Both the position numbers and the translations under genes were made by a program. Under the pieces are notes generated by a model. It searched no databases and was not told where the DNA came from. It saw only the letters and a list, made by a program, of their open reading frames with translations. A DNA stretch of 62,605 bases, counting the filler, from Porpidia crustulata (Eukaryota): NCBI GenBank assembly GCA_964255105.1. It is 7 parts of 7 records of this genome, joined end to end, with 100 filler letters (N's around TTAATTAATTAA, not from the genome) between each part and the next. Parts side by side here need not be neighbours in the genome. Positions count along the whole stretch, not along the records: positions 1 to 8,880 come from CAXUWE010001035.1; 6 more parts are not named here. One strand, written 5' to 3'. How positions within the stretch are numbered: position 1 is the first letter of the stretch; each line of letters begins with the position of its first letter. Positions 1 through 8,980 of the stretch are shown one piece after another.

Positions 1-224
1 AGCTTGTGTGGTAACCTGTGGAAGAGAGATGAGGTTGTAGTTTCGGGTGGTTGAAGGGCGGGCGGGTAAGGCTAGACACGTGATCTCGAATTTTGATCAT
101 CGACATGCACCCCTCAGCCGGTCGTTACCTAGGGTTAGGGCTCAACATATATCTTAGCCTAGGGTGCCCGATTGAGGGATACAGGGTGTAGGTGTATCCC
201 TCACTGTCACGACCGTGTCGTGAA

Positions 225-790
225 TATAAACGAGACGAAAATCATGCTGAGCATGTTCAGCTTCATCAAACTCCCTGTCGATAAGACTGACACGCGAGAC
301 TATATCGAAAGTATTACCATCAACGATAAATATTTAAAACTTCTTAAAATCTGATCGTCTACGATTCATAGAAATCATTAAACAACATATTCCAACCCTA
401 AATGACTCTATGCATGCTTCGAATCCGGATTTACCGACTTCTATATCAATCTGCAGTGACTCAAGTGTGTGTTTGGTCCCCGTACTATAAAACTGATTAT
501 CAAAAATCACGAAGGCAGATATAAAACGATTTCTGAATGCATGAGACTCGAGATCTTGAAGTTTTGTTTCGAAAACAGAATTATTGTATGCCGTATGTTC
601 ACTCACATCTTTCACGATCTCTAGTTCATATCGTAGTGTTTAGTTCGCTGAAGACAGTCTATCGCGAACAGGTTGAACAAATGGAGCGAGGCGTGAACAC
701 AATCGGCAAGCAACTTTTCACTTATCTGTACAGCTGTGCAAGAGAAGGAACGTTCATCAAGCAGGACATTCTCGCAGGATGGAGAGGCAA
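225..790 (+). mobile_element. Degenerate pogo/Fot1-type (Tc1/mariner superfamily) DDE transposase fragment
   Basis: Broken reading frames give NETKIMLSMFSFIKLPVDKTDTRDY, YACFESGFTDFYINLQ*LKCVFGPRT and VFSSLKTVYREQVEQMERGVNTIGKQLFTYLYSCAR. These resemble the DDE_1 region of fungal pogo transposases. Stops, frameshifts and many G>A/C>T-type changes are present. Confidence 0.75.
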
Positions 791-932
791 TTTGAACGTT
801 GATCACTAGACTGAAAATACTGGACTGTATCTCAGTTCGGTGTGATGACTTCTAAATAACTAGACAGCGGTTTATTCCCATTCAATCCTGCAAGAGTTCT
901 CGCAGATACGTCAAAGTCTCCTACTGAATTAA

Positions 933-1510
933 TCATTCCGGAAGCCGATGAGGTAAAGAAGGATACTTGTCCGCACTACGAAGCACTGTCAACGCCCATA
1001 GTTCTGGCGCAATTTCCACCTCCTCAACCTGCGCTTCGCTCATCCGCACATCTTTGGTCTTTGACTCTGGCGCACCTGCCTCTTTCGAACTTTTGCACTT
1101 CCGGCCATGATTTTCCTTGCCTGCGGGGGCGACTTTCTTGTCCTTTTTCGCGCTCTTCTTGGCCTCATTCGCAGCCTCTTTCACAGCACGCTCCGCTCGT
1201 GCCTTCTCGAGGTTCTCATAGCTCATCACTCTCACATTCTCTAATATCACTGACTTGATCGATTGATGAACTTTGCCTTCATCATTGATGTTGATCAAGA
1301 ATTGATTTCGATCCTCAAGGAGAGCGTTCTTGGCAAGAAATTTCTGGGCGGTAGTGATGACCTTCTGTTGGGACCTCTATTGATGCTGTCTGCTCGTCTC
1401 ATCATCAGGAGCCTGTTTGATCATATCAAGTAGCGACGTCAGAGTTTCTGCTGACACTGACATCACGGAGAGCCCCAGTGGCGTGGATGTGGTAGCGGAG
1501 GATGTGGAAG
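933..1510 (-). mobile_element. Degenerate pogo/Fot1-type transposase C-terminal fragment
   Basis: VSAETLTSLLDMIKQ...KNALLEDRNQFLININDEGKVHQSIKSVILENVRVMSYENLEKARAERAVKE resembles the C-terminal coiled-coil tail of fungal pogo transposases. It contains an internal stop. Confidence 0.65.
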
Positions 1511-1966
1511 ACGAGACTCGCGTTCTTTTACTGATTAATTACTTAGCAATTAATGAGAGAGTTTATTATCGTCGCTCTTTCGACACAATAATCGTACGGA
1601 CAGACGACCAATTGTAGATAGAGACCGGTCTTTGGTGTCCCTCTGTCCTGCTCGTCATGTCCTGCGATAACCGTTCCCATTACAGAGGAGTGCAGATACA
1701 TCTGGGACTTCGTGCTCTTTATTTATACTATCAATTAATCAGTAAGGAATGACTGTAGAATTACAATCGACGTGGTTGATTTTACATTTACTCTATTAAA
1801 ATCGATCGTTGTTCACACCATTGTTTGAAGCACCTCGGTCATAGAGATACAGCGCATCTTTATGCAGTCTTGGACCGACTTATCCCGAGTGAATGGTGTC
1901 TTTTCATCATTCACCTAATTCTTTCATCATGTCTTTATATCCTCGTCTCCTTTCTCCTGTAGAATG

Positions 1967-4347
1967 TTACCGAACTTTACTAGCTTCAGCGTTCTTAATC
2001 GAACATTCAAGTTCTGTTGAGACGCAAATTTTGCGTGAACGAAGCAGAAAGTTCCATATTTCTTGACTTCGAGCATTTAGCATGACGTGATGCTTTATCC
2101 GGTCGGTCTCGTTTCTTTTGATAGTTGCTGAATCACTTGCTGCAGAAGAACTAATCTTGGATTCTTCTATCTGCCATTCAGTCAATGCTCTGGAAGAAAA
2201 CAGCGTATCGGGATGATTGGCGCCTAAGAATCGGGTTTGCAGATTTGCACATTCAGTCATTAAATCGAAAGCCTTTACATTTCGATCCTGGCGTTTTCAG
2301 ATGAGGGCAACATTTTTCATGCTGGTCAGCGTCTCAGGATGCTCCTCGCTTAGCACCCGCTTACTTGTCTCCGTTACTCGTATCTCCAGCGCTTCCGCCT
2401 CCTTNNNNNNNNNNNNNNNNNNNNNNNNNNNNNNNNNNNNNNNNNNNNNNNNNNNNNNNNNNNNNNNNNNNNNNNNNNNNNNNNNNNNNNNNNNNNNNNN
2501 NNNNCCAGCGCTTCCGCCTCCTTTCAGCGTTCTTGATTGCAGTATGTCGAGGCTAGATTGCCCATGCTGACCAGCGTGTGAGGATGCTCCTCGCTCAGCA
2601 CCCTCTTCGTTGTCTTCGTCGCTCGCATTTGCAGCTCTTTGGCTTCCTTTTAACGACCCGCCGAGCTATATGCTACGTCTGTAATTAACATACTTCTCAG
2701 AGTCTCCTCATCTTCTTGACCGAATATTTTCTTCCTGGCTTTCATTGCCAATTCAAACAGGTTGACGGCTTCAGTTGTACTTCCTTTACTCCACGCGTAC
2801 CAGGCTACATTTTGTAATAGTGAAGCTCATTCTCTCAATGACTTGTCCTCCGTTGGCCGTAGTTTGACTGCCGACTTCACATGAAGAAAGAGTGCTCGGC
2901 AGTATGTTCAAGTCTCGTAGCTCCCGATCGGAAATTCGGCGAAAAGGTTCTCAATGTAACACTGCATTCACTGCTCGAACTTTTCGTTGGCTTTCAATCA
3001 TTCTCGCGTTGTCAGTTGTACTAGTGCATGCATTTCAAAGATCCGATTTGTATCGACGGACAGAAATGAGTAGTTTCTTAAAATCTGCACGTCATCTTCA
3101 AACCCGTCGTTCTCACTGCATTTCGATTTATTATCCTCATCATCTTCCTCTTCTTCTCTGTCATCATGCTTACCGAACTTTTCTTGGCCTCTGTGATTAT
3201 TTTCAATTTCGGCTCGCTTCCGGACCAGGACTTCAGGAATGCCTTGTCGATCAAAGAAGCTCATCAACGAGAGTAGATCAGCTGCGGATGCCCTGTTCCG
3301 TTCTATGTGCTCGAACGAGATCTGCCACGTGATAATGATGAAGTTTTTGGCCTCCTAGTCTCTCCGGAGGTGACCTCCTTCGCGATTCAGGAAACTCGTT
3401 TTTTGTGATCGCTGATGCGAAATTCTTCCAGATATTGCTGTACGGAGCACCGCGGTGCTCGCTGAGAGATGCATGCCGCCGCTTGCACGATGGCCAGCGG
3501 CATAAAATCCAGTACTGCTGCGAGATCGGCGATATGGTTGTCTTCGCCTATCGCTCCTAGCTTCTTCTCGAACAGTGTCAGCGCGTGCGACTCCTTCATC
3601 GGTGATACTGCAATTGTTTCCTTCTCTTTCACTAGCTTCAACGCAACGGCCTGGCTCCGACTGGTAACCAGGATCGACCCATTTTGGCTCTGAGGGAGAT
3701 ACGCTGTCATCGGCTGCTGAGATTCACCATCCACGCCAGTCCCTTGCCCTCCCTGGCCAGCATCTCCAGTCTCAGAAAGAAGATCAATATTGTCGACGTT
3801 ATCGAGGATCAGCAGCCACTTTCCCTCGCACCCGCGAAGCCAGTCGTGCACCAACTTGAATATATTAGCCTTCGGATCCTCCCGTCCTGCAATCTTGGTC
3901 ATGTTTGCAATATCTCGATAGCCCTGCTCGAATCGAGGTGTGTTACTCGCGTGAACCCAGAAAACCCATGTATCCGGTGACCGGTCCCGGGTGCGGTGGG
4001 CATATTCAATAGCAAGTTGAGACTTCCCCACGCCACCCAGGCCGACAAGCGCTGCGCGACCGGCTGGTTGTGAGCATCGTTGATCGACTCGTGAGAGGAG
4101 ATCGCCGCGGTCGACAAAATCGGGATCGCGTCGAAAAGGAACGTTAGAGATGGGTTTCGGAGGGCGGCTTGCTAGATATAAGTTTAGCCTTAGGCCTTTG
4201 AAAATTACACACAAATCCAGTATACTGACATTTGCGCGTGCCAATGGCCACATTTGTCAAATTTGGGAAATGTCCTGCAAGTGCGATGCTGTGGTCAGTC
4301 GCGGACGTGTCGCTGATGTGCTGGTGGGACAGCTGAGCGCTCGACAT
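1967..4347 (-). pseudogene. Fungal NLR (N-terminal amyloid motif + NB-ARC + TPR repeats), 3' half disrupted
   Basis: Exon 1 4347-4230 (MSSAQLSHQHISDTSATDHSIALAGHFPNLTNVAIGTRK) is followed by a GT-AG intron 4229-4172 that splices in frame to SRPPKPISNVPFRRDPDFVDR. Walker A is GLGGVGKSQLA, Walker B is WLLILDNVD, and a MPLAIVQAA motif follows. TPR units read LSEEHPETL and LGANHPDTL. There is a frameshift near 3395 and in-frame stops at 3355, 2998, 2968, 2908, 2827, 2650 and 2524. Confidence 0.9.
2405..2504. other. Scaffold gap (100 N) within the TPR array
   Basis: Both flanks carry CCAGCGCTTCCGCCTCCTT (KEAEAL on the minus strand), consistent with unresolved near-identical TPR repeats. Confidence 0.9.
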
Positions 4348-4547
4348 TGGTCCTTGCCTTGTCTATCGGATTCGCGACTTATGAAGAATTCATTATACTT
4401 TGGCGTAAATCCCTCCGTAATACGACTTGGGATGCTTTGGCTACGAAGTCAAGGCGGCCGCTGGATATCTGCACCTCTTGCGATGCATGTCGCAAGCTCA
4501 AGCTGGGCCGGAGACGGTGGCGGAGTCCCCCTGTCCAATTGCAGCAT

Positions 4548-4605
4548 TCAACAAGGCTGCCGATTGCCACGTATTCAAAAGGGTCAATAAGGCTGCCGAT
4601 TGCCA
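4548..4605. repeat. 22-bp direct repeat in the divergent NLR/effector intergenic region
   Basis: TCAACAAGGCTGCCGATTGCCA (4548-4569) and TCAATAAGGCTGCCGATTGCCA (4584-4605), one mismatch. Confidence 0.85.
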
Positions 4606-4701
4606 ATGCATTGATATGGGTCAACGTCCGTCGCATTTGATACAGCGACAGCTCAAGTCTTTGTTTGTACGTATTTCCGGTCCAGAAACTTCAATTTGAA
4701 A

Positions 4702-5735
4702 ATGACTGACCCACTTAGTATTACTGCTTCGGTGGTAGCCATCACTACCGCTGCCATTGGGAGCGTCAAGTTCCTTCATACCACAATTGGCGATATCAAG
4801 GATGTTCCCACTGCCCTGGGAAACATTAGAACTGACCTCGAAGCAGTCGAGCCAATACTTCAGGTGCTGCATACAGAATTGGAAAGCGAAGACTCTCAAG
4901 TGCTCCTGATTGATGACATTAAAGGGGCCGTAGAGAACTGTCACTCAGCCTGCACCACATTCAAAAAAAGGCTTGATCATTGGATGAGACACGCTACCAA
5001 AAACAAGGCGTTCTGGGCTGAGTGGACTGATCGATTAAGAGTCGGTATGTTTGAGCAGGGAACAATCAACGTCTTCAGAGGACGACTCAACGATTGCAAG
5101 AGTACACTTAATGTGACGCTGAATACCTCCTCAGTGTAAGACTATGTCAAAGATACCTTACTAGATTTGTACAGCTTCAGCTTGCCGATTGCTCTGATAG
5201 GCTTACAGTGGCCCGTCAAGGCTTTATAATGAAACAGGTGAAAGATTCCATGCTCAAGGACAATGAAGTACGCCTTGATGAAGAGAAATCTCGAGCAAAC
5301 CACGAGTTAGCAGCAATCGAGAGCTCCATGAAACAGCTCTCAGTCAGTATTCGTCACGAGATCAACGAAGAGTCGAAGCGGAATCTGAAACAGCTGTTCG
5401 AGGAGATGCAGGAACAGAAGGCCTTCAACGAAGTCTTTCGAAAGACTTGCGACGAAGCGCTCCTAAAAAGCAAGAACGTTCATGATGAGATCGAGCAGGA
5501 AATCAAGAATACCAAAGCAGACAACAACAGTAGAGCTGTGGCTGGACTCATAAATACTTCTGAATTTCGGAAGATCAAGCAAAATATATCAGATACTTCT
5601 GCTACAGAAGGAAGCTTTGCTGGCGCTGGAATTATTCAGGGTCTGGACCTTTCGATTCCAAGCTCAAGGAATCAAACAGCAACGACTTCGGTCTCATTGT
5701 TTGATTATGCTGCTGTGGAGTTACCGAGTTCTTGA
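4702..5735 (+). CDS. HeLo-like/SesA-type N-terminal domain protein with a C-terminal two-repeat HET-s-related amyloid motif (about 322 aa)
   Basis: The N-terminus MTDPLSITASVVAITTAAIGSVKFL is typical of HeLo-like domains. Intron 5136-5200 (GTAAGA...TAG) joins the two ORFs in frame. C-terminal pseudo-repeats are QEIKNTKADNNSRAVAGLIN and QNISDTSATEGSFAGAGIIQ. Confidence 0.85.
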
Positions 5736-5795
5736 ACGCAGACATTATCACATACGGAATTCGTTCATGGGGAACTACGACATTTAAGAGTCATG

Positions 5796-5917
5796 TGTTA
5801 TGAACCCTATTGATATATCTAGTAGTATATGGGCTAAGTCTAACGGCTTAGTATAATGACTTAGCATAGTATAGGTAATGACTTCCAGGTTAGTATAGTA
5901 CATCAAGTTCCATAACA
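5796..5917. mobile_element. Possible RIP-degraded solo LTR
   Basis: Bounded by TGTTATG...CATAACA inverted termini (TG...CA) with a strongly TpA-rich interior. No matching target-site duplication was seen. Confidence 0.45.
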
Positions 5918-6507
5918 ACTTCATCTGTCAACAATTTTCTTCCATAAAGTTGTAGCTTTTGATGCTTATATCAAAGTTCAACATAATTTGATTATCACAT
6001 AGATTTGCATCCACTGTTCTCTACGACGACTTGTAATTCGATAAAGAATTGGATTTATCTTGAATATCAAGAGTCGAAATGATAATGATTCATCTACAGA
6101 AAATTAATACGCTCGCGTAGGCAAGTAGTAAAAGAAAGTTGGTTTTCCAGTTACATCTTTCGTGGTGACTTATTGAGAATTAAGAAGTCTTGGTGTTTTT
6201 GTGAAATCGTTTGGAATCTGGAATCGGCATTGACTTTTGTATCCGACCCTCGTAACCGCAATGACTATTTATCTTGTATACCAAGTGTATTGGTCACTCG
6301 GGTTTCCATGGAGTGGACATTCAAACCGCTTACAGTGCTACCATATCGACCACAGAATCGGAAAAGCTGATGTGGTTCACTTCGCTGGTTATCTATTCCT
6401 AATACTAAGAGTTTCGCTACGTGCTAGCAATCCATCGACGAAGTAGGCCTGAATGCATGTCATAACATGTACAGATTTCCCTCAAATAGCATTCCACCGA
6501 TCTGTGA

Positions 6508-7361
6508 CTATATGCTGAGGGCCATGATGGAATTGACAATATCGTTATCATTCTAGAACGCTCGTTAGCAAATTCGACACGGAAGTTTCGACAAAGGTAC
6601 AAGGGGTTACCTCTTTCAAAGCCTTGACAGCCTTCTTTTTCGAGACGCTGGCTTGAGCCATGACCAATTCAATGTCTTTGGCTTCTAGTCCGGTGTCATC
6701 GACCTCCTCGTCATCGTCCTCCTCCTCCTCCTCCTTGGTATGATCTCCATCCTCGATGGCTTTGCCCTTGTCCTTTGCGTGGTCGTGACCTGCGTGTGGG
6801 TCTTTAGCACCGCTATCTCCTTGTGACGTAATTTTCTTAGGCGGCCCCTCGGGCATCTGGGAGCTTAGATCTTCAATCTTGGCTTCGCCGAAGATGCTAG
6901 GGTTTCAAGTTAGCCATATTTGAATCTGGAATGGGACATGTAGCATACATCCAGGTGTTGCTCGACGGAGATTTGTAGACGTCTGGCTGGTTTATGACAA
7001 AGAGAATCTGTTGATCTAATCAGCCCTTCGTACATGGTCTACACCTTAAAAAAGCCTTGAGCACTGCAAAGCATGTCCAAGCGGTCAACATATCGGTTTT
7101 GCTGTAACTCACATTCTTAGGTCTCCTCAAAGTAACCCTTGTAATTCCTGGAACATGTTTCAAGCCCAACTTGGCAATTGATTTTCTAGCCTTCTTCTCA
7201 TTACGCGAGTGTACTGTAACAGAAGATCCCCCAGTTATTCCAATCTCTTCTCCACCTGCAGCTTCCGGCTCAGAGTCGGAGCTACTCGAAGCATCGTCGA
7301 CATCTGCGCCCTTCTTCGCCGGCGGGTCATCCGGAAGTTCCTCGATTCGGGGATTGGACAT
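6508..7361 (-). CDS. EGD2: Nascent polypeptide-associated complex alpha subunit
   Basis: [11 protein letters not shown]...[56 protein letters not shown] and a UBA tail [38 protein letters not shown]. Three GT-AG introns. Confidence 0.95.
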
Positions 7362-8880
7362 CTTGAAGGGAGCTCTGCATTGTGGAAACATGAATTAGCA
7401 AAGCCATTTCTCCAAATCTTAAGCTACTCTCTCGTGACGGTATTGTTCAAGTACAATCCGAAGTCACCTATTCAAAGGAACCGGCAAGAGATTTAGACAT
7501 ACCTTAGATAAAATATGACCCAAAGTGAGCTGGTGGCAGCAGCGTAAAGCCCCAGGGCGGTTCCCTCGAGAGTTTAGCGAGTGCGGCGCTCGATCGGGCT
7601 TAGCTAGCACAGACGTTGTCAATCGAATGTCGACCACTCAGAGCAATTCTGTTCATCACATCGTGTACAGTTATTTTCCGCTTACATGGGCAAGCTGTGA
7701 AGTTCTTTACAGGAGCAAGATTGCTCCTTTCTCGGCGAAAACGTATTGGATTATCCATACCTCCATGACCTCTCGTCGGCCACGTCCCGGAAGCGACAAT
7801 GTCCCCCATCCTACCAGTTGCCAACGTGCCTGTCTTCAGCTACATATGAATATCATCATCCCAGACCCAGACCTCACTCAATTCAAGATCAACCAATCCA
7901 TATATCATCGACATAGCGCCACTACTGAGTCACTTTGCACTAGTATGTGGCCTTGGTGGAGTATCTCTCTCGAGCCAGCGTCTGTTCTACGCAACAAACT
8001 TTATGAGGCTGTGATGTCTATCCAATTATCTAGCTTGCGCAGTGGTGCCATCCTGCCATGGGAAGAAATCTCGTATTTTTACGCTTGTATCTCCAGTCTT
8101 GTTTCTGCTGCACGTTCTATCCTACTGTACATGGCTGTCATCAAATTACTGCCATCTTCCTCTATCTCATCCGCCAAATACTAAGTTACTTCTCGGTCAA
8201 AACAGCAACCTTCTTTAACACATCGACTCGCTCACCTTCAAGTCGAGTCTACTTAGGTCTTTCTCTCTGACTTGAGTACGTCTAGTTCTTCACTTGCGAC
8301 GCTTTATTATTGTATTCGCTTTACCGTCACGGCCCGCTACCCTAGCTGAGATCAATACGAGGTGAAGGCTGAAGATTGGTGGACATGGCCCATTGTTTAG
8401 CTGTGTCAATTCCGCATGCGGTCGCCTGTCTTAGTCAAGCAGTTCACGGGGGGCTTATAGACGTACGATGTTTTTGGTCATGCTCCAACGCCTTCTAACT
8501 CAAAAGTGGAGCGGGCAGGGCAGTTTTAGCCGAAGCCTCTACAATTTACGTTTTGCCCGGGATTTGTTTGCAGCGTTCTTCGTACAGTTTGCTCGTCTGA
8601 AAGTCATCAGCTCCGCGTCCATGGCCAATCCAGCCAGAAGCCCCGGTCAGCATCGTATGGTCGCTGTGCTTTCTTTGGGTATATAATAATCGAGGGTTTT
8701 CCCATCTTCAACATAACCTTGCACTCTATTAAGTTCAAAGTCACTCAAATCTGCAAAACCAAGCTATTCAAAGCAAAACATTACTATGAAGCTCCTCTTT
8801 GCGCTACTTTTTAGCATTGGGTAATCCTAACTTTCCTACCATCCGTTACCGTGCACAATCACCGCATCATACCTCAAAAG

Positions 8881-8980
8881 NNNNNNNNNNNNNNNNNNNN
8901 NNNNNNNNNNNNNNNNNNNNNNNNTTAATTAATTAANNNNNNNNNNNNNNNNNNNNNNNNNNNNNNNNNNNNNNNNNNNN
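8881..8980. other. Artificial contig linker (N44-TTAATTAATTAA-N44)
   Basis: Six-frame stop spacer, identical at six places in the window. Confidence 0.98.

What the first reader, a model, noticed from the sequence alone, without database searches (positions are those of the whole stretch)
4230..5735. Head-to-head NLR and HeLo-like effector sharing a HET-s-type amyloid motif
Seen: the NLR's first exon, which the ORF track does not join to the NB-ARC, encodes HQHISDTSATDHSIALAGHF. The divergent gene 354 bp away ends in two pseudo-repeats, EQEIKNTKADNNSRAVAGLIN (about 5493-5555) and KQNISDTSATEGSFAGAGIIQ (about 5577-5640). The shared pattern is Q-x-I-x-[DN]-T-x-A-x-x-x-S-x-A-x-A-G. Established: in the NWD2/HET-S and HELLF-type systems an NLR with one N-terminal repeat (R0) templates the beta-solenoid amyloid fold of an adjacent HeLo or HeLo-like cell-death effector with two repeats (R1/R2). 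Inference: this is such an amyloid-signalling immune module, with an NB-ARC/TPR receptor and possibly a distinct HRAM variant.
Basis: partly seen in the sequence, partly recalled or inferred. Interest (0 to 1): 0.82.

Follow-up and report, generated by a model that had tools for sequence, protein, structure and literature searches.

The report
Amyloid-motif NLR/HeLo-like pair, receptor decayed
A lichen-type fungus carries a known kind of immune gene pair, in which a receptor and a cell-death protein share a short amyloid-forming tag, but here the receptor's sensor half is broken by stop codons while the death protein is intact.

Summary
The minus-strand first exon (4347-4230) encodes one 21-residue motif (R0). 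It matches two pseudo-repeats (R1, R2) at the C-terminus of the divergent gene 354 bp away: 12/18 identities to R2, with 0 of 5000 shuffles reaching the score.

The effector is an intact 322-aa HeLo-like protein (PF17111, E 8e-23). The receptor is NB-ARC/DUF7779/TPR. Annotated homologues support both splice models.

The same head-to-head pair recurs in 5 of 14 fetched metagenome loci. It also recurs in two named lichen-fungus genomes with consecutive locus tags. The motif fits the published HRAM pattern (Q3, hydrophobic core positions, G19). By homology it belongs with HRAM2-type proteins, so it is not a new motif class.

AlphaFold gives a two-rung strand pattern. Its only structural match among 48,161 chains is HET-s(218-289), and that match is weak (Z 2.6).

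The cis receptor is therefore probably dead and the effector is an orphan.

Verdict: a new member of a known kind, of modest interest. No RNA data were found and amyloid formation is untested.

The parts
4702..5135 (+). Effector exon 1: HeLo-like N-terminal domain with a hydrophobic N-terminal helix
   Evidence: PF17111 (now named PigL_N, formerly Helo_like_N) E 8.4e-23; SesA PF17107 E 2.2e-7
5136..5200 (+). Effector intron (65 nt; GTAAGA donor, TAG acceptor)
   Evidence: The frame is restored. The 322-aa model aligns to A. fumigatus AFUA_8G05770 with no gap at the junction. The intron position is kept in L001-L004.
5201..5735 (+). Effector exon 2: helical hairpin, then the R1-loop-R2 region, a 31-residue tail and the stop codon
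   Evidence: AF2 gives helices 2-52 and 56-94, then four strands. There are 72 homologues with E<=1e-3.
5490..5555 (+). R1 pseudo-repeat (IEQEIKNTKADNNSRAVAGLIN)
5574..5639 (+). R2 pseudo-repeat (IKQNISDTSATEGSFAGAGIIQ), separated from R1 by a 7-residue loop
4348..4701 (.). Shared divergent intergenic (promoter) region. It holds an extra 36-37 bases that relatives lack, a second copy of the adjacent stretch around GGCTGCCGATTGCCA (about 4550-4626).
   Evidence: 82% mean column identity to L001, L002 and L004; the insertion is seen only in the window
4230..4347 (-). NLR exon 1, 39 codons plus 1 base; the R0 motif lies at 4267-4329
   Evidence: The same N-terminus is present on 6 of the 120 listed NLR homologues.
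4172..4229 (-). NLR intron (58 nt)
   Evidence: Splice signals are conserved in L001, L002 and L004. The alignment across the junction is gap-free.
3390..4171 (-). NLR exon 2, still-open part: P-loop and NB-ARC
   Evidence: PF00931 E 9.3e-10; 80% identity to P0073
2140..3389 (-). Degenerate NLR remainder (DUF7779 winged helix plus TPR_10/12). It has a frameshift in the A6 run 3399-3404 and stops at 3387-3389, 3355-3357, 2998-3000, 2968-2970, 2908-2910, 2827-2829, 2650-2652, 2524-2526 and 2297-2299. An assembly gap (N) lies at 2405-2504.
   Evidence: tblastn of P0073 and P0104; Pfam; Logan contigs identical over 2581-5800

Best explanation
This is a HET-s-related-amyloid-motif (HRAM, HRAM2-like) signalling pair of an ascomycete whose closest relatives are lichen-forming Lecanoromycetes.

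In intact relatives, the expected mechanism is as follows (inferred from NWD2/HET-S and FNT1/HELLF). Ligand-driven oligomerisation of the NB-ARC/TPR receptor brings its N-terminal R0 motifs together. They adopt a beta-solenoid-type amyloid rung. That rung templates the R1-R2 region of the neighbouring HeLo-like protein, which then releases its N-terminal membrane-targeting helix and kills the cell.

In this window the effector gene is intact and has evolved under purifying selection. The receptor keeps R0 and the NB-ARC but has lost its winged-helix/TPR half to one frameshift and eight stops. The cis receptor is therefore most likely a pseudogene. If the effector is still used, it would have to be triggered by a paralogous NLR that carries the same motif.
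For: Shown by tools:
- Domain content: PF17111/SesA on the effector; NB-ARC, DUF7779 and TPR_10/12 on the NLR.
- Motif sharing is beyond chance and unique in the window.
- Fit to the published HRAM pattern: in all three repeats Q3, I5, T8, A10, A16, A18 and G19; R at position 15 in R1; a 7-residue loop against 6-18 published; no like-charge clash in register. R0 has 4 H, 4 S and no E or K, matching the published r0 trend.
- Both splice models are supported by gap-free alignment to annotated homologues.
- Of the 120 listed NLR homologues, 6 carry the same R0 at their N-terminus.
- Of 14 metagenome loci, 5 keep NLR(R0 exon)-effector head to head. L001 is fully intact, with a 977-aa NLR ORF.
- Consecutive locus tags in two genomes: Xylographa soralifera MMC17_006904/006905 and Lecanora helva ACLMJK_008757/008756.
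This is suggestive only.
- AF2 of the 61-aa repeat region gives pLDDT 88, with strands 6-11/13-14/20-26 repeated at 34-39/41-42/48-54. The only chain of 48,161 with Z>=2 is 2kj3_A, HET-s(218-289): Z 2.6, rmsd 5.3, 59 residues aligned.
- NLR decay: a frameshift plus 8 stops, 7 of them opposite Trp in intact homologues. The Logan contigs are identical.
- Window-specific changes are 111/659 in 2506-3399 against 68/725 in 3400-4347, with G>A 38 against A>G 13.
- Effector dN/dS is 0.26-0.35.

Inferred: the templating mechanism itself, and trans-activation by paralogues.
Against: - No RNA run holds the locus, so neither expression nor splicing has been seen.
- No amyloid, prion or cell-death assay exists for this protein. 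In the searched library the term HRAM2 occurs in 5 papers; the 4 listed are one unrelated paper and three fungal amyloid-motif papers, of which I read only passages or sections and saw no HRAM2 experiment.
- PF11558 does not match. The window's repeat region matched 0 families at E<=10, and PF11558 is not among the 25 families shown for the 25 aligned members.
- The HET-s structural match is weak (Z 2.6). Foldseek found nothing with E<=1e-3. AF2 may also have learned the HET-s fold from the PDB.
- Among 7 cognate pairs there is no pair-specific covariation. Cognate R0-R2 identity averages 9.7/21 against 9.9/21 for 42 non-cognate combinations. Only clade-level co-conservation is shown.
- Of the 14 loci, 9 show no adjacent NLR. 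L007 and L009 have 1.0-1.4 kb of upstream DNA without one, and the others are short or degraded.
- R0 is closer to R2 (12/21) than to R1 (8/21), the opposite of the trend the paper reports for HRAM2.
- HRAM2 assignment rests on species tables and homology, because the paper's motif file could not be read.
- dN/dS of the decayed NLR part is only slightly raised (0.25-0.29 against 0.17). The decay is therefore recent, or the comparison is insensitive.
Confidence: 0.74

Rival explanations
1. The whole locus, effector included, is a silent relic. The effector frame is open only because decay is recent, and the pair has no present function.
For: The partner NLR is broken. Paralogous copies in relatives are often dead: effector stops occur in L003, L004, L011, L012 and L013, which is 5 of 14 loci. 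The usual stop after ...SIPSSRNK is lost here, and the protein runs on for about 19 more residues. No RNA holder was found, but that is reported only as a blank.
Against: The 322-aa frame is open with good splice signals. dN/dS is 0.26-0.35 against L001 and L002. The promoter region is 82% conserved. The same C-terminal extension occurs in another homologue, P0237. All core HRAM positions are kept.
Confidence: 0.15
2. The NLR still works in some form. Either the 300-aa R0 plus NB-ARC product acts as a sensor-less seed or regulator, or the stops belong to one allele or copy and an intact copy exists at this locus.
For: Exon 1, the intron signals and the NB-ARC stay open for 300 codons at 78-80% identity to intact relatives. 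NB-ARC dN/dS is 0.29. There is an assembly gap at 2405-2504, and repeat joints in the TPR array show that the assembly is uncertain there.
Against: Nine frame-breaking lesions lie upstream of and beyond the gap. An independent contig build reproduces them with 0 differences and no variant letters at those places. From general knowledge of STAND NTPases, a receptor without its winged-helix and sensor repeats has no known way to be ligand-gated.
Confidence: 0.08
3. The shared motif is not an amyloid template. It is either another kind of short linear interaction or regulatory motif, or similarity without function.
For: PF11558 does not match. The structural match to HET-s is weak. Amyloid formation is untested.
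Against: The motif occupies exactly the positions (NLR N-terminus once, effector C-terminus twice) that define HRAM pairs, and it follows their pattern. It is conserved in 10 of 10 aligned NLR N-termini at Q, I, T, S, A, A and G. Chance is excluded.
Confidence: 0.03

Closest known systems
HRAM2-class HeLo-like/NLR pairs (Daskalov, Dyrka & Saupe 2015, PMC4518210; example named in PMC5485727: Penicillium roqueforti W6Q0M1/W6PZN6)
   Same: HeLo-like N-domain. Two 21-residue pseudo-repeats with Q at position 3, a hydrophobic core pattern and G19. One r0 on the adjacent NLR. The effector is homologous to A. fumigatus AFUA_8G05770 and to Cadophora proteins, species for which the paper lists only HRAM2.
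   Different: The lichen-clade signature has T instead of a hydrophobic residue at position 8 (I-S-x-T-S-A). R0 is nearer to R2 than to R1. The effector has a roughly 19-residue C-terminal extension. The NLR is decayed here. Clustering against the paper's motif set could not be done.
FNT1/HELLF of Podospora anserina (HRAM5; PDB 6EKA)
   Same: A HeLo-like effector with an R1/R2 prion-forming region, next to an NLR with an N-terminal R0. For HELLF, prion behaviour, membrane relocation and cell death are shown (passages).
   Different: The HRAM5 hallmarks QxFG (positions 1-4) and QG(QI) (16-18) are absent. 6EKA appeared only at rank 24 with E 1.3 in Foldseek.
NWD2/HET-S of Podospora anserina (HRAM1; PDB 2KJ3/2RNM)
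   Same: The same logic: receptor R0 templates effector R1/R2. 2kj3_A is the only PDB representative with Z>=2 to the AF2 model.
   Different: HET-S has a HeLo domain (not HeLo-like), N at position 3 and a PF11558 match, and NWD2 is NACHT/WD. Here the effector is PF17111, position 3 is Q, there is no PF11558 match and the receptor is NB-ARC/TPR.

Membership tests
HRAM NLR/HeLo-related amyloid-signalling pair | Effector has an N-terminal HeLo, HeLo-like or SesA domain | tested here: met
   PF17111 E 8.4e-23, SesA E 2.2e-7
HRAM NLR/HeLo-related amyloid-signalling pair | Two C-terminal 21-residue pseudo-repeats with G at 19 and hydrophobic residues at 5, 8, 10, 16 and 18, joined by a loop of 6-18 residues | tested here: met
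   R1 and R2 have I5, T8, A10, A16, A18 and G19, with a 7-residue loop. Position 8 is Thr here and Val in more distant homologues.
HRAM NLR/HeLo-related amyloid-signalling pair | The adjacent gene encodes an NLR with one copy of the motif at its very N-terminus | tested here: met
   R0 occupies residues 7-27 of the divergent NB-ARC/TPR gene. The same holds in 5 of 14 loci and in 2 named genomes.
HRAM NLR/HeLo-related amyloid-signalling pair | r0 is poor in D, E and K and rich in S and H | tested here: met
   The R0 21-mer has 2 D, 0 E, 0 K, 4 S and 4 H
HRAM NLR/HeLo-related amyloid-signalling pair | Beta-solenoid amyloid fold with in-register stacking of the repeats | tested here: inconclusive
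   AF2 gives a two-rung strand pattern at pLDDT 88. The only match is HET-s at Z 2.6. Foldseek is not significant.
HRAM NLR/HeLo-related amyloid-signalling pair | Prion or amyloid formation, seeding by R0, and cell death on conversion | not testable with these tools
   Needs experiments
HRAM NLR/HeLo-related amyloid-signalling pair | An intact, ligand-gated receptor partner | tested here: not met
   A frameshift plus 8 in-frame stops after the NB-ARC
HRAM2 subfamily | Q at motif position 3 | tested here: met
   Q is present in R0, R1 and R2
HRAM2 subfamily | Clusters with HRAM2 motifs at PAM110 | not tested
   The paper's motif files are unreadable here. Indirect evidence: homology to proteins of A. 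fumigatus and Cadophora, species listed with HRAM2 only.
HRAM5 (HELLF type) | QxFG at positions 1-4 and QG(QI) at positions 16-18 | tested here: not met
   The repeats read I-[EK]-Q-[EN] and A-[VG]-A at those positions
Pfam HET-s_218-289 (PF11558; canonical HRAM1) | Match to the Pfam model | tested here: not met
   0 families at E<=10 for the repeat region, and no hit at E<=1 for exon 2. The paper notes that only 38 of 155 HRAM proteins match.

The most novel reading that the evidence does not exclude
Lecanoromycete (lichen-forming) fungi hold an expanded sub-clade of HRAM2-like pairs whose R0, R1 and R2 share one clade-wide signature (Q-x-I-S-x-T-S-A-x-x-G-S-x-A-x-A-G) without pair-specific covariation. 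NLRs and HeLo-like effectors would then form a cross-seeding network rather than private pairs. Orphan effectors like this one would stay under selection because paralogous receptors fire them. Copies are turned over by a GpG/CpC-biased hypermutation that preferentially makes Trp-to-stop changes.
Probability: 0.2. Interest if true: 0.55.

Novelty: new member of a known kind. Interest (0 to 1): 0.3.

Why it matters
The locus adds a clearly documented HRAM-type amyloid-signalling pair from lichen-type fungi. The searchable literature I reached does not discuss that group for this system (one search listed no lichen-specific paper).

It also shows a natural case of an intact cell-death effector left beside a decayed receptor. 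If paralogous receptors with the same motif can fire it, that bears on how specific amyloid signalling really is.

It does not change the known picture of how such modules work.

Tried and rejected
- Whole-genome search: no genome is held for this window.
- Earlier scan findings: none for this genome. The word search returned only bacterial and phage motif pairs, which I did not use.
- RNA evidence: no RNA holder is listed. Only contigs of one DNA-type run could be laid.
- Complex prediction of the 61-aa repeat region with the 39-aa R0 exon: the verdict was 'no answer' (scores 0.02 and 0.00). My alignments were not used by the tool. This is neither support nor evidence against.
- Foldseek against the PDB: nothing with E<=1e-3, with the whole exon 2 model or with the repeat-only model.
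- Supplements of PMC4518210: unreadable.
- Four short motif strings searched in the supplements of PMC9815663: 0 occurrences, with 3 files not searched.
- The term AFUA_8G05770 occurs in no paper of the library.
- Classical RIP as the cause of NLR decay: the indices are not met (TpA/ApT 0.57, (CpA+TpG)/(ApC+GpT) 1.36). I do not call it RIP. The C>T changes are instead enriched at CpC.
- Pair-specific covariation of R0 with R1 or R2: not found.
- HRAM5 and HRAM1 membership: rejected on their defining residues.
Full report
**1. What is in the sequence**

The plus-strand gene starts at ATG 4702. Its first ORF ends at a TAA at 5137-5139, and a second frame is open from 5112 to the stop at 5733-5735. 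A 65-nt intron (5136-5200, GTAAGA donor, TAG acceptor) joins the two frames into a 322-codon gene. That product aligns from residue 3 to 295 with Aspergillus fumigatus AFUA_8G05770 (42% identity, E 7e-76), with no gap at the junction.

- Exon 1 matches PF17111 (now named PigL_N, formerly Helo_like_N) at E 8.4e-23, and SesA at 2.2e-7.
- Exon 2 has no Pfam match.

On the minus strand, ATG 4347 opens a 39-codon exon containing HQHISDTSATDHSIALAGHF. A 58-nt intron (4229-4172; GTCAGT donor, CTAAC branch site, TAG acceptor) puts it in frame with the ORF that runs to 3390. That ORF matches NB-ARC (E 9.3e-10). Further downstream come DUF7779 and TPR_10/TPR_12 pieces. The joined 300-aa N-terminal product aligns to Xylographa soralifera MMC17_006904 over 294 residues with 0 gaps, and to Puttea exsequens MMC21_005855 from residue 1.

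**2. Is the shared motif more than chance?**

- BLASTP of the 39-aa exon against effector exon 2 gives 12/18 identities, E 2e-5.
- None of 5000 shuffles of the exon reached the observed score (51; maximum 41).
- The R1-R2 repeat is likewise beyond 5000 shuffles. R0 against R1 was reached by 4 of 5000.
- In register, R0-R2 share 12/21 residues, R0-R1 share 8/21 and R1-R2 share 9/21.
- A relaxed pattern finds only these three sites in six frames of the whole window.

**3. Which motif class?**

I read the abstract, Results, one Discussion section, and the legends and tables of Daskalov, Dyrka & Saupe 2015 (PMC4518210). HRAMs are defined there by:
- G at position 19;
- hydrophobic residues at positions 5, 8, 10, 16 and 18;
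- often R or K at position 15;
- a loop of 6-18 residues;
- r0 motifs poor in D, E and K and rich in S and H.

Position 3 separates the classes: N in HRAM1, Q in HRAM2, H in HRAM3. HRAM4 has Q at position 18 and HRAM5 has Q at position 16.

Here all three repeats have Q3, I5, T8, A10, A16, A18 and G19. R1 has R15. The loop is 7 residues. In-register charges do not clash. R0 has 4 H, 4 S, no E and no K.

HRAM5 (HELLF) hallmarks QxFG and QG(QI), taken from passages of bioRxiv 10.1101/2020.07.06.188508, are absent.

The effector's more distant homologues include A. fumigatus AFUA_8G05770 and two Cadophora proteins. Table 1 of the paper lists only HRAM2 for both taxa. I therefore file the motif as HRAM2-like by inference.

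Direct clustering was not possible because the motif file could not be read. PF11558 does not match. The paper says the same is true of 117 of its 155 HRAM proteins.

One departure from the paper: R0 is nearer to R2 than to R1, whereas the paper reports the opposite tendency for HRAM2.

**4. Relatives and conservation of the pair**

*Effector homologues.* The exon 2 product has 72 representative homologues with E<=1e-3. It also has 77 clusters at 62-85% identity among proteins of 97-310 aa. Most of these are exon-level gene calls from metagenome assemblies.

*NLR homologues.* The closest named NLR homologues are from lichen-forming fungi: Xylographa, Wetmoreana, Lecanora, Letrouitia, Cladonia, Ramalina, Teloschistes and Puttea. 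Of the 120 listed N-termini:
- 6 carry the same R0: P0074, P0076, P0088, P0090, P0099 and P0104;
- about a dozen close ones start inside the translated intron, so exon 1 cannot be seen;
- many others carry a different N-terminal motif of the NxGxQxGxN kind, or a fused SesA-type domain.

*Named genomes.* Two named genomes give consecutive locus tags on one contig:
- Xylographa soralifera: NLR MMC17_006904 and effector MMC17_006905;
- Lecanora helva: NLR ACLMJK_008757 and effector ACLMJK_008756.

*Metagenome loci.* Of 14 loci fetched with the effector, 5 keep the NLR R0 exon and the effector head to head: L001, L002, L003, L004 and L012.
- L001 is fully intact, with a 977-aa NLR ORF and no stop in effector exon 1.
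- The other 9 loci show no NLR. L007 and L009 have 1.0-1.4 kb of upstream DNA without one. The rest are short or degraded.

*Other signs of linkage and conservation.*
This is suggestive only.
- Ten aligned R0 sequences are invariant at Q, I, T, S, A, A and G.
- The 354-bp intergenic region is 82% identical across four loci.

*Covariation.* Among 7 cognate pairs, R0-R2 identity averages 9.7/21, against 9.9/21 for 42 non-cognate combinations. The motif is therefore co-conserved at clade level, with no sign of pair-specific co-evolution.

**5. Structure**

AF2 on exon 2 (20-row alignment) gives two long helices and then four strands, with mean pLDDT 76.9.

The 61-residue repeat region alone (25 rows) gives pLDDT 88 and pTM 0.68. 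Its strand set repeats with a 28-residue period.

- Foldseek found nothing significant. 6EKA appeared at rank 24 (E 1.3) and 2RNM at rank 4 (E 8.2).
- VIA-align against 48,161 representative chains returned a single chain with Z>=2: 2kj3_A, HET-s(218-289), with Z 2.6, rmsd 5.3 A and 59 residues aligned.

This is weak support, and it is not independent of AF2's training data.

**6. The receptor here is broken**

tblastn of intact homologues (P0073, P0104) against the window shows a frame change at the A6 run 3399-3404. It also shows in-frame stops at 3355-3357, 2998-3000, 2968-2970, 2908-2910, 2827-2829, 2650-2652, 2524-2526 and 2297-2299. Seven of these lie opposite Trp in the homologues and one lies opposite Leu. 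In the unshifted frame the ORF ends at 3387-3389.

Logan contigs of the one run that holds the stretch match 2581-5800 with 0 differences. The lesions are therefore not one assembler's artefact, although the run may be the source sample. The TPR array around the N gap (2405-2504) is not reliably assembled.

Window-specific substitutions are denser in 2506-3399 (111/659) than in 3400-4347 (68/725), and they lean to G>A (38, against 13 A>G).

Classical RIP indices are not met. C>T changes are enriched in the CpC context:
- window: 37 of 90, p 0.001;
- L004: 52 of 91, p 2e-10;
- background: 26%.

That context is the one that turns TGG into stops.

dN/dS values:

| Region | dN/dS |
|---|---|
| Effector | 0.26-0.35 |
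| NB-ARC | 0.29 |
| Decayed NLR part | 0.25-0.29 |
| Same part between intact relatives | 0.17 |

**7. Reading**

The locus is an HRAM2-like amyloid-signalling pair of the NWD2/HET-S and FNT1/HELLF kind. The effector is intact. The receptor keeps R0 and the NB-ARC but has lost its sensor half.

The templating mechanism is inferred from the model systems. It was not tested here, and no RNA data were available.

The locus is a new member of a known kind. The mildly new points are:
- the lichen-fungus clade signature (Thr at position 8);
- the many paralogous, often decayed copies;
- the absence of pair-specific covariation;
- the orphaned effector.

Noticed in passing
window 8881-8980, and again about every 8.95 kb (17853, 26822, 35775, 44726, 53667): Each N block is 44 N, then TTAATTAATTAA, then 44 N. 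That is a six-frame-stop linker, so the window looks like a chain of separate contigs of about 8.9 kb. The finding lies on the first piece (1-8880). The window's own effector protein is on record with a longest contig of 8880. Genes beyond 8880 need not be linked to it.
   Followed up: partly
window 2297-3357 (minus strand); L004:3250-5183: C>T (G>A) changes are enriched at CpC, that is GpG on the other strand: 37 of 90 in the window and 52 of 91 in L004, against 26% background. In L004, 48 of 49 differences from the L001/L002 consensus in the NB-ARC part are G>A or C>T. This is a RIP-like hypermutation with an unusual context that favours Trp-to-stop changes. Classical RIP indices do not detect it.
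   Followed up: partly
window about 4550-4626: The window holds 36-37 extra bases that L001, L002 and L004 lack, a second copy of the adjacent stretch (core GGCTGCCGATTGCCA) in the otherwise 82%-conserved divergent promoter.
   Followed up: no
window 5660-5735: The effector has lost the stop that most close homologues use just after ...SIPSS(R/K)N(K/E), and it runs on for about 19 more residues. One homologue (P0237) has a similar extension.
   Followed up: partly
window 6548-7394 (minus strand): The downstream neighbour is a nascent-polypeptide-associated-complex alpha-type gene (NAC domain E 3e-8, UBA E 2e-6), split by an intron.
   Followed up: partly
L003, L004, L011, L012, L013: Paralogous or orthologous copies of the pair in relatives are often dead. 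There are stops in the effector exons. The ATG of the NLR R0 exon is lost in L003 and L004. The repeat region is lost in L012.
   Followed up: partly
proteins P0094-P0192: Most other close NB-ARC/TPR homologues carry a different N-terminal short motif (ISFGDxNxGxQxGxxNG type, resembling the published PP pattern NxGxQxGxN) or a fused SesA-like domain. One NB-ARC/TPR lineage has therefore swapped N-terminal signalling modules.
   Followed up: no
window 933-1376 (minus strand): A 147-aa ORF with a Lys/Ala/Glu-rich tail lies just beyond the 3' end of the NLR. It has only a sub-threshold Pfam hit (DUF2486, E 6.5e-4). It may be a remnant of a mobile element, but this was not established.
   Followed up: partly
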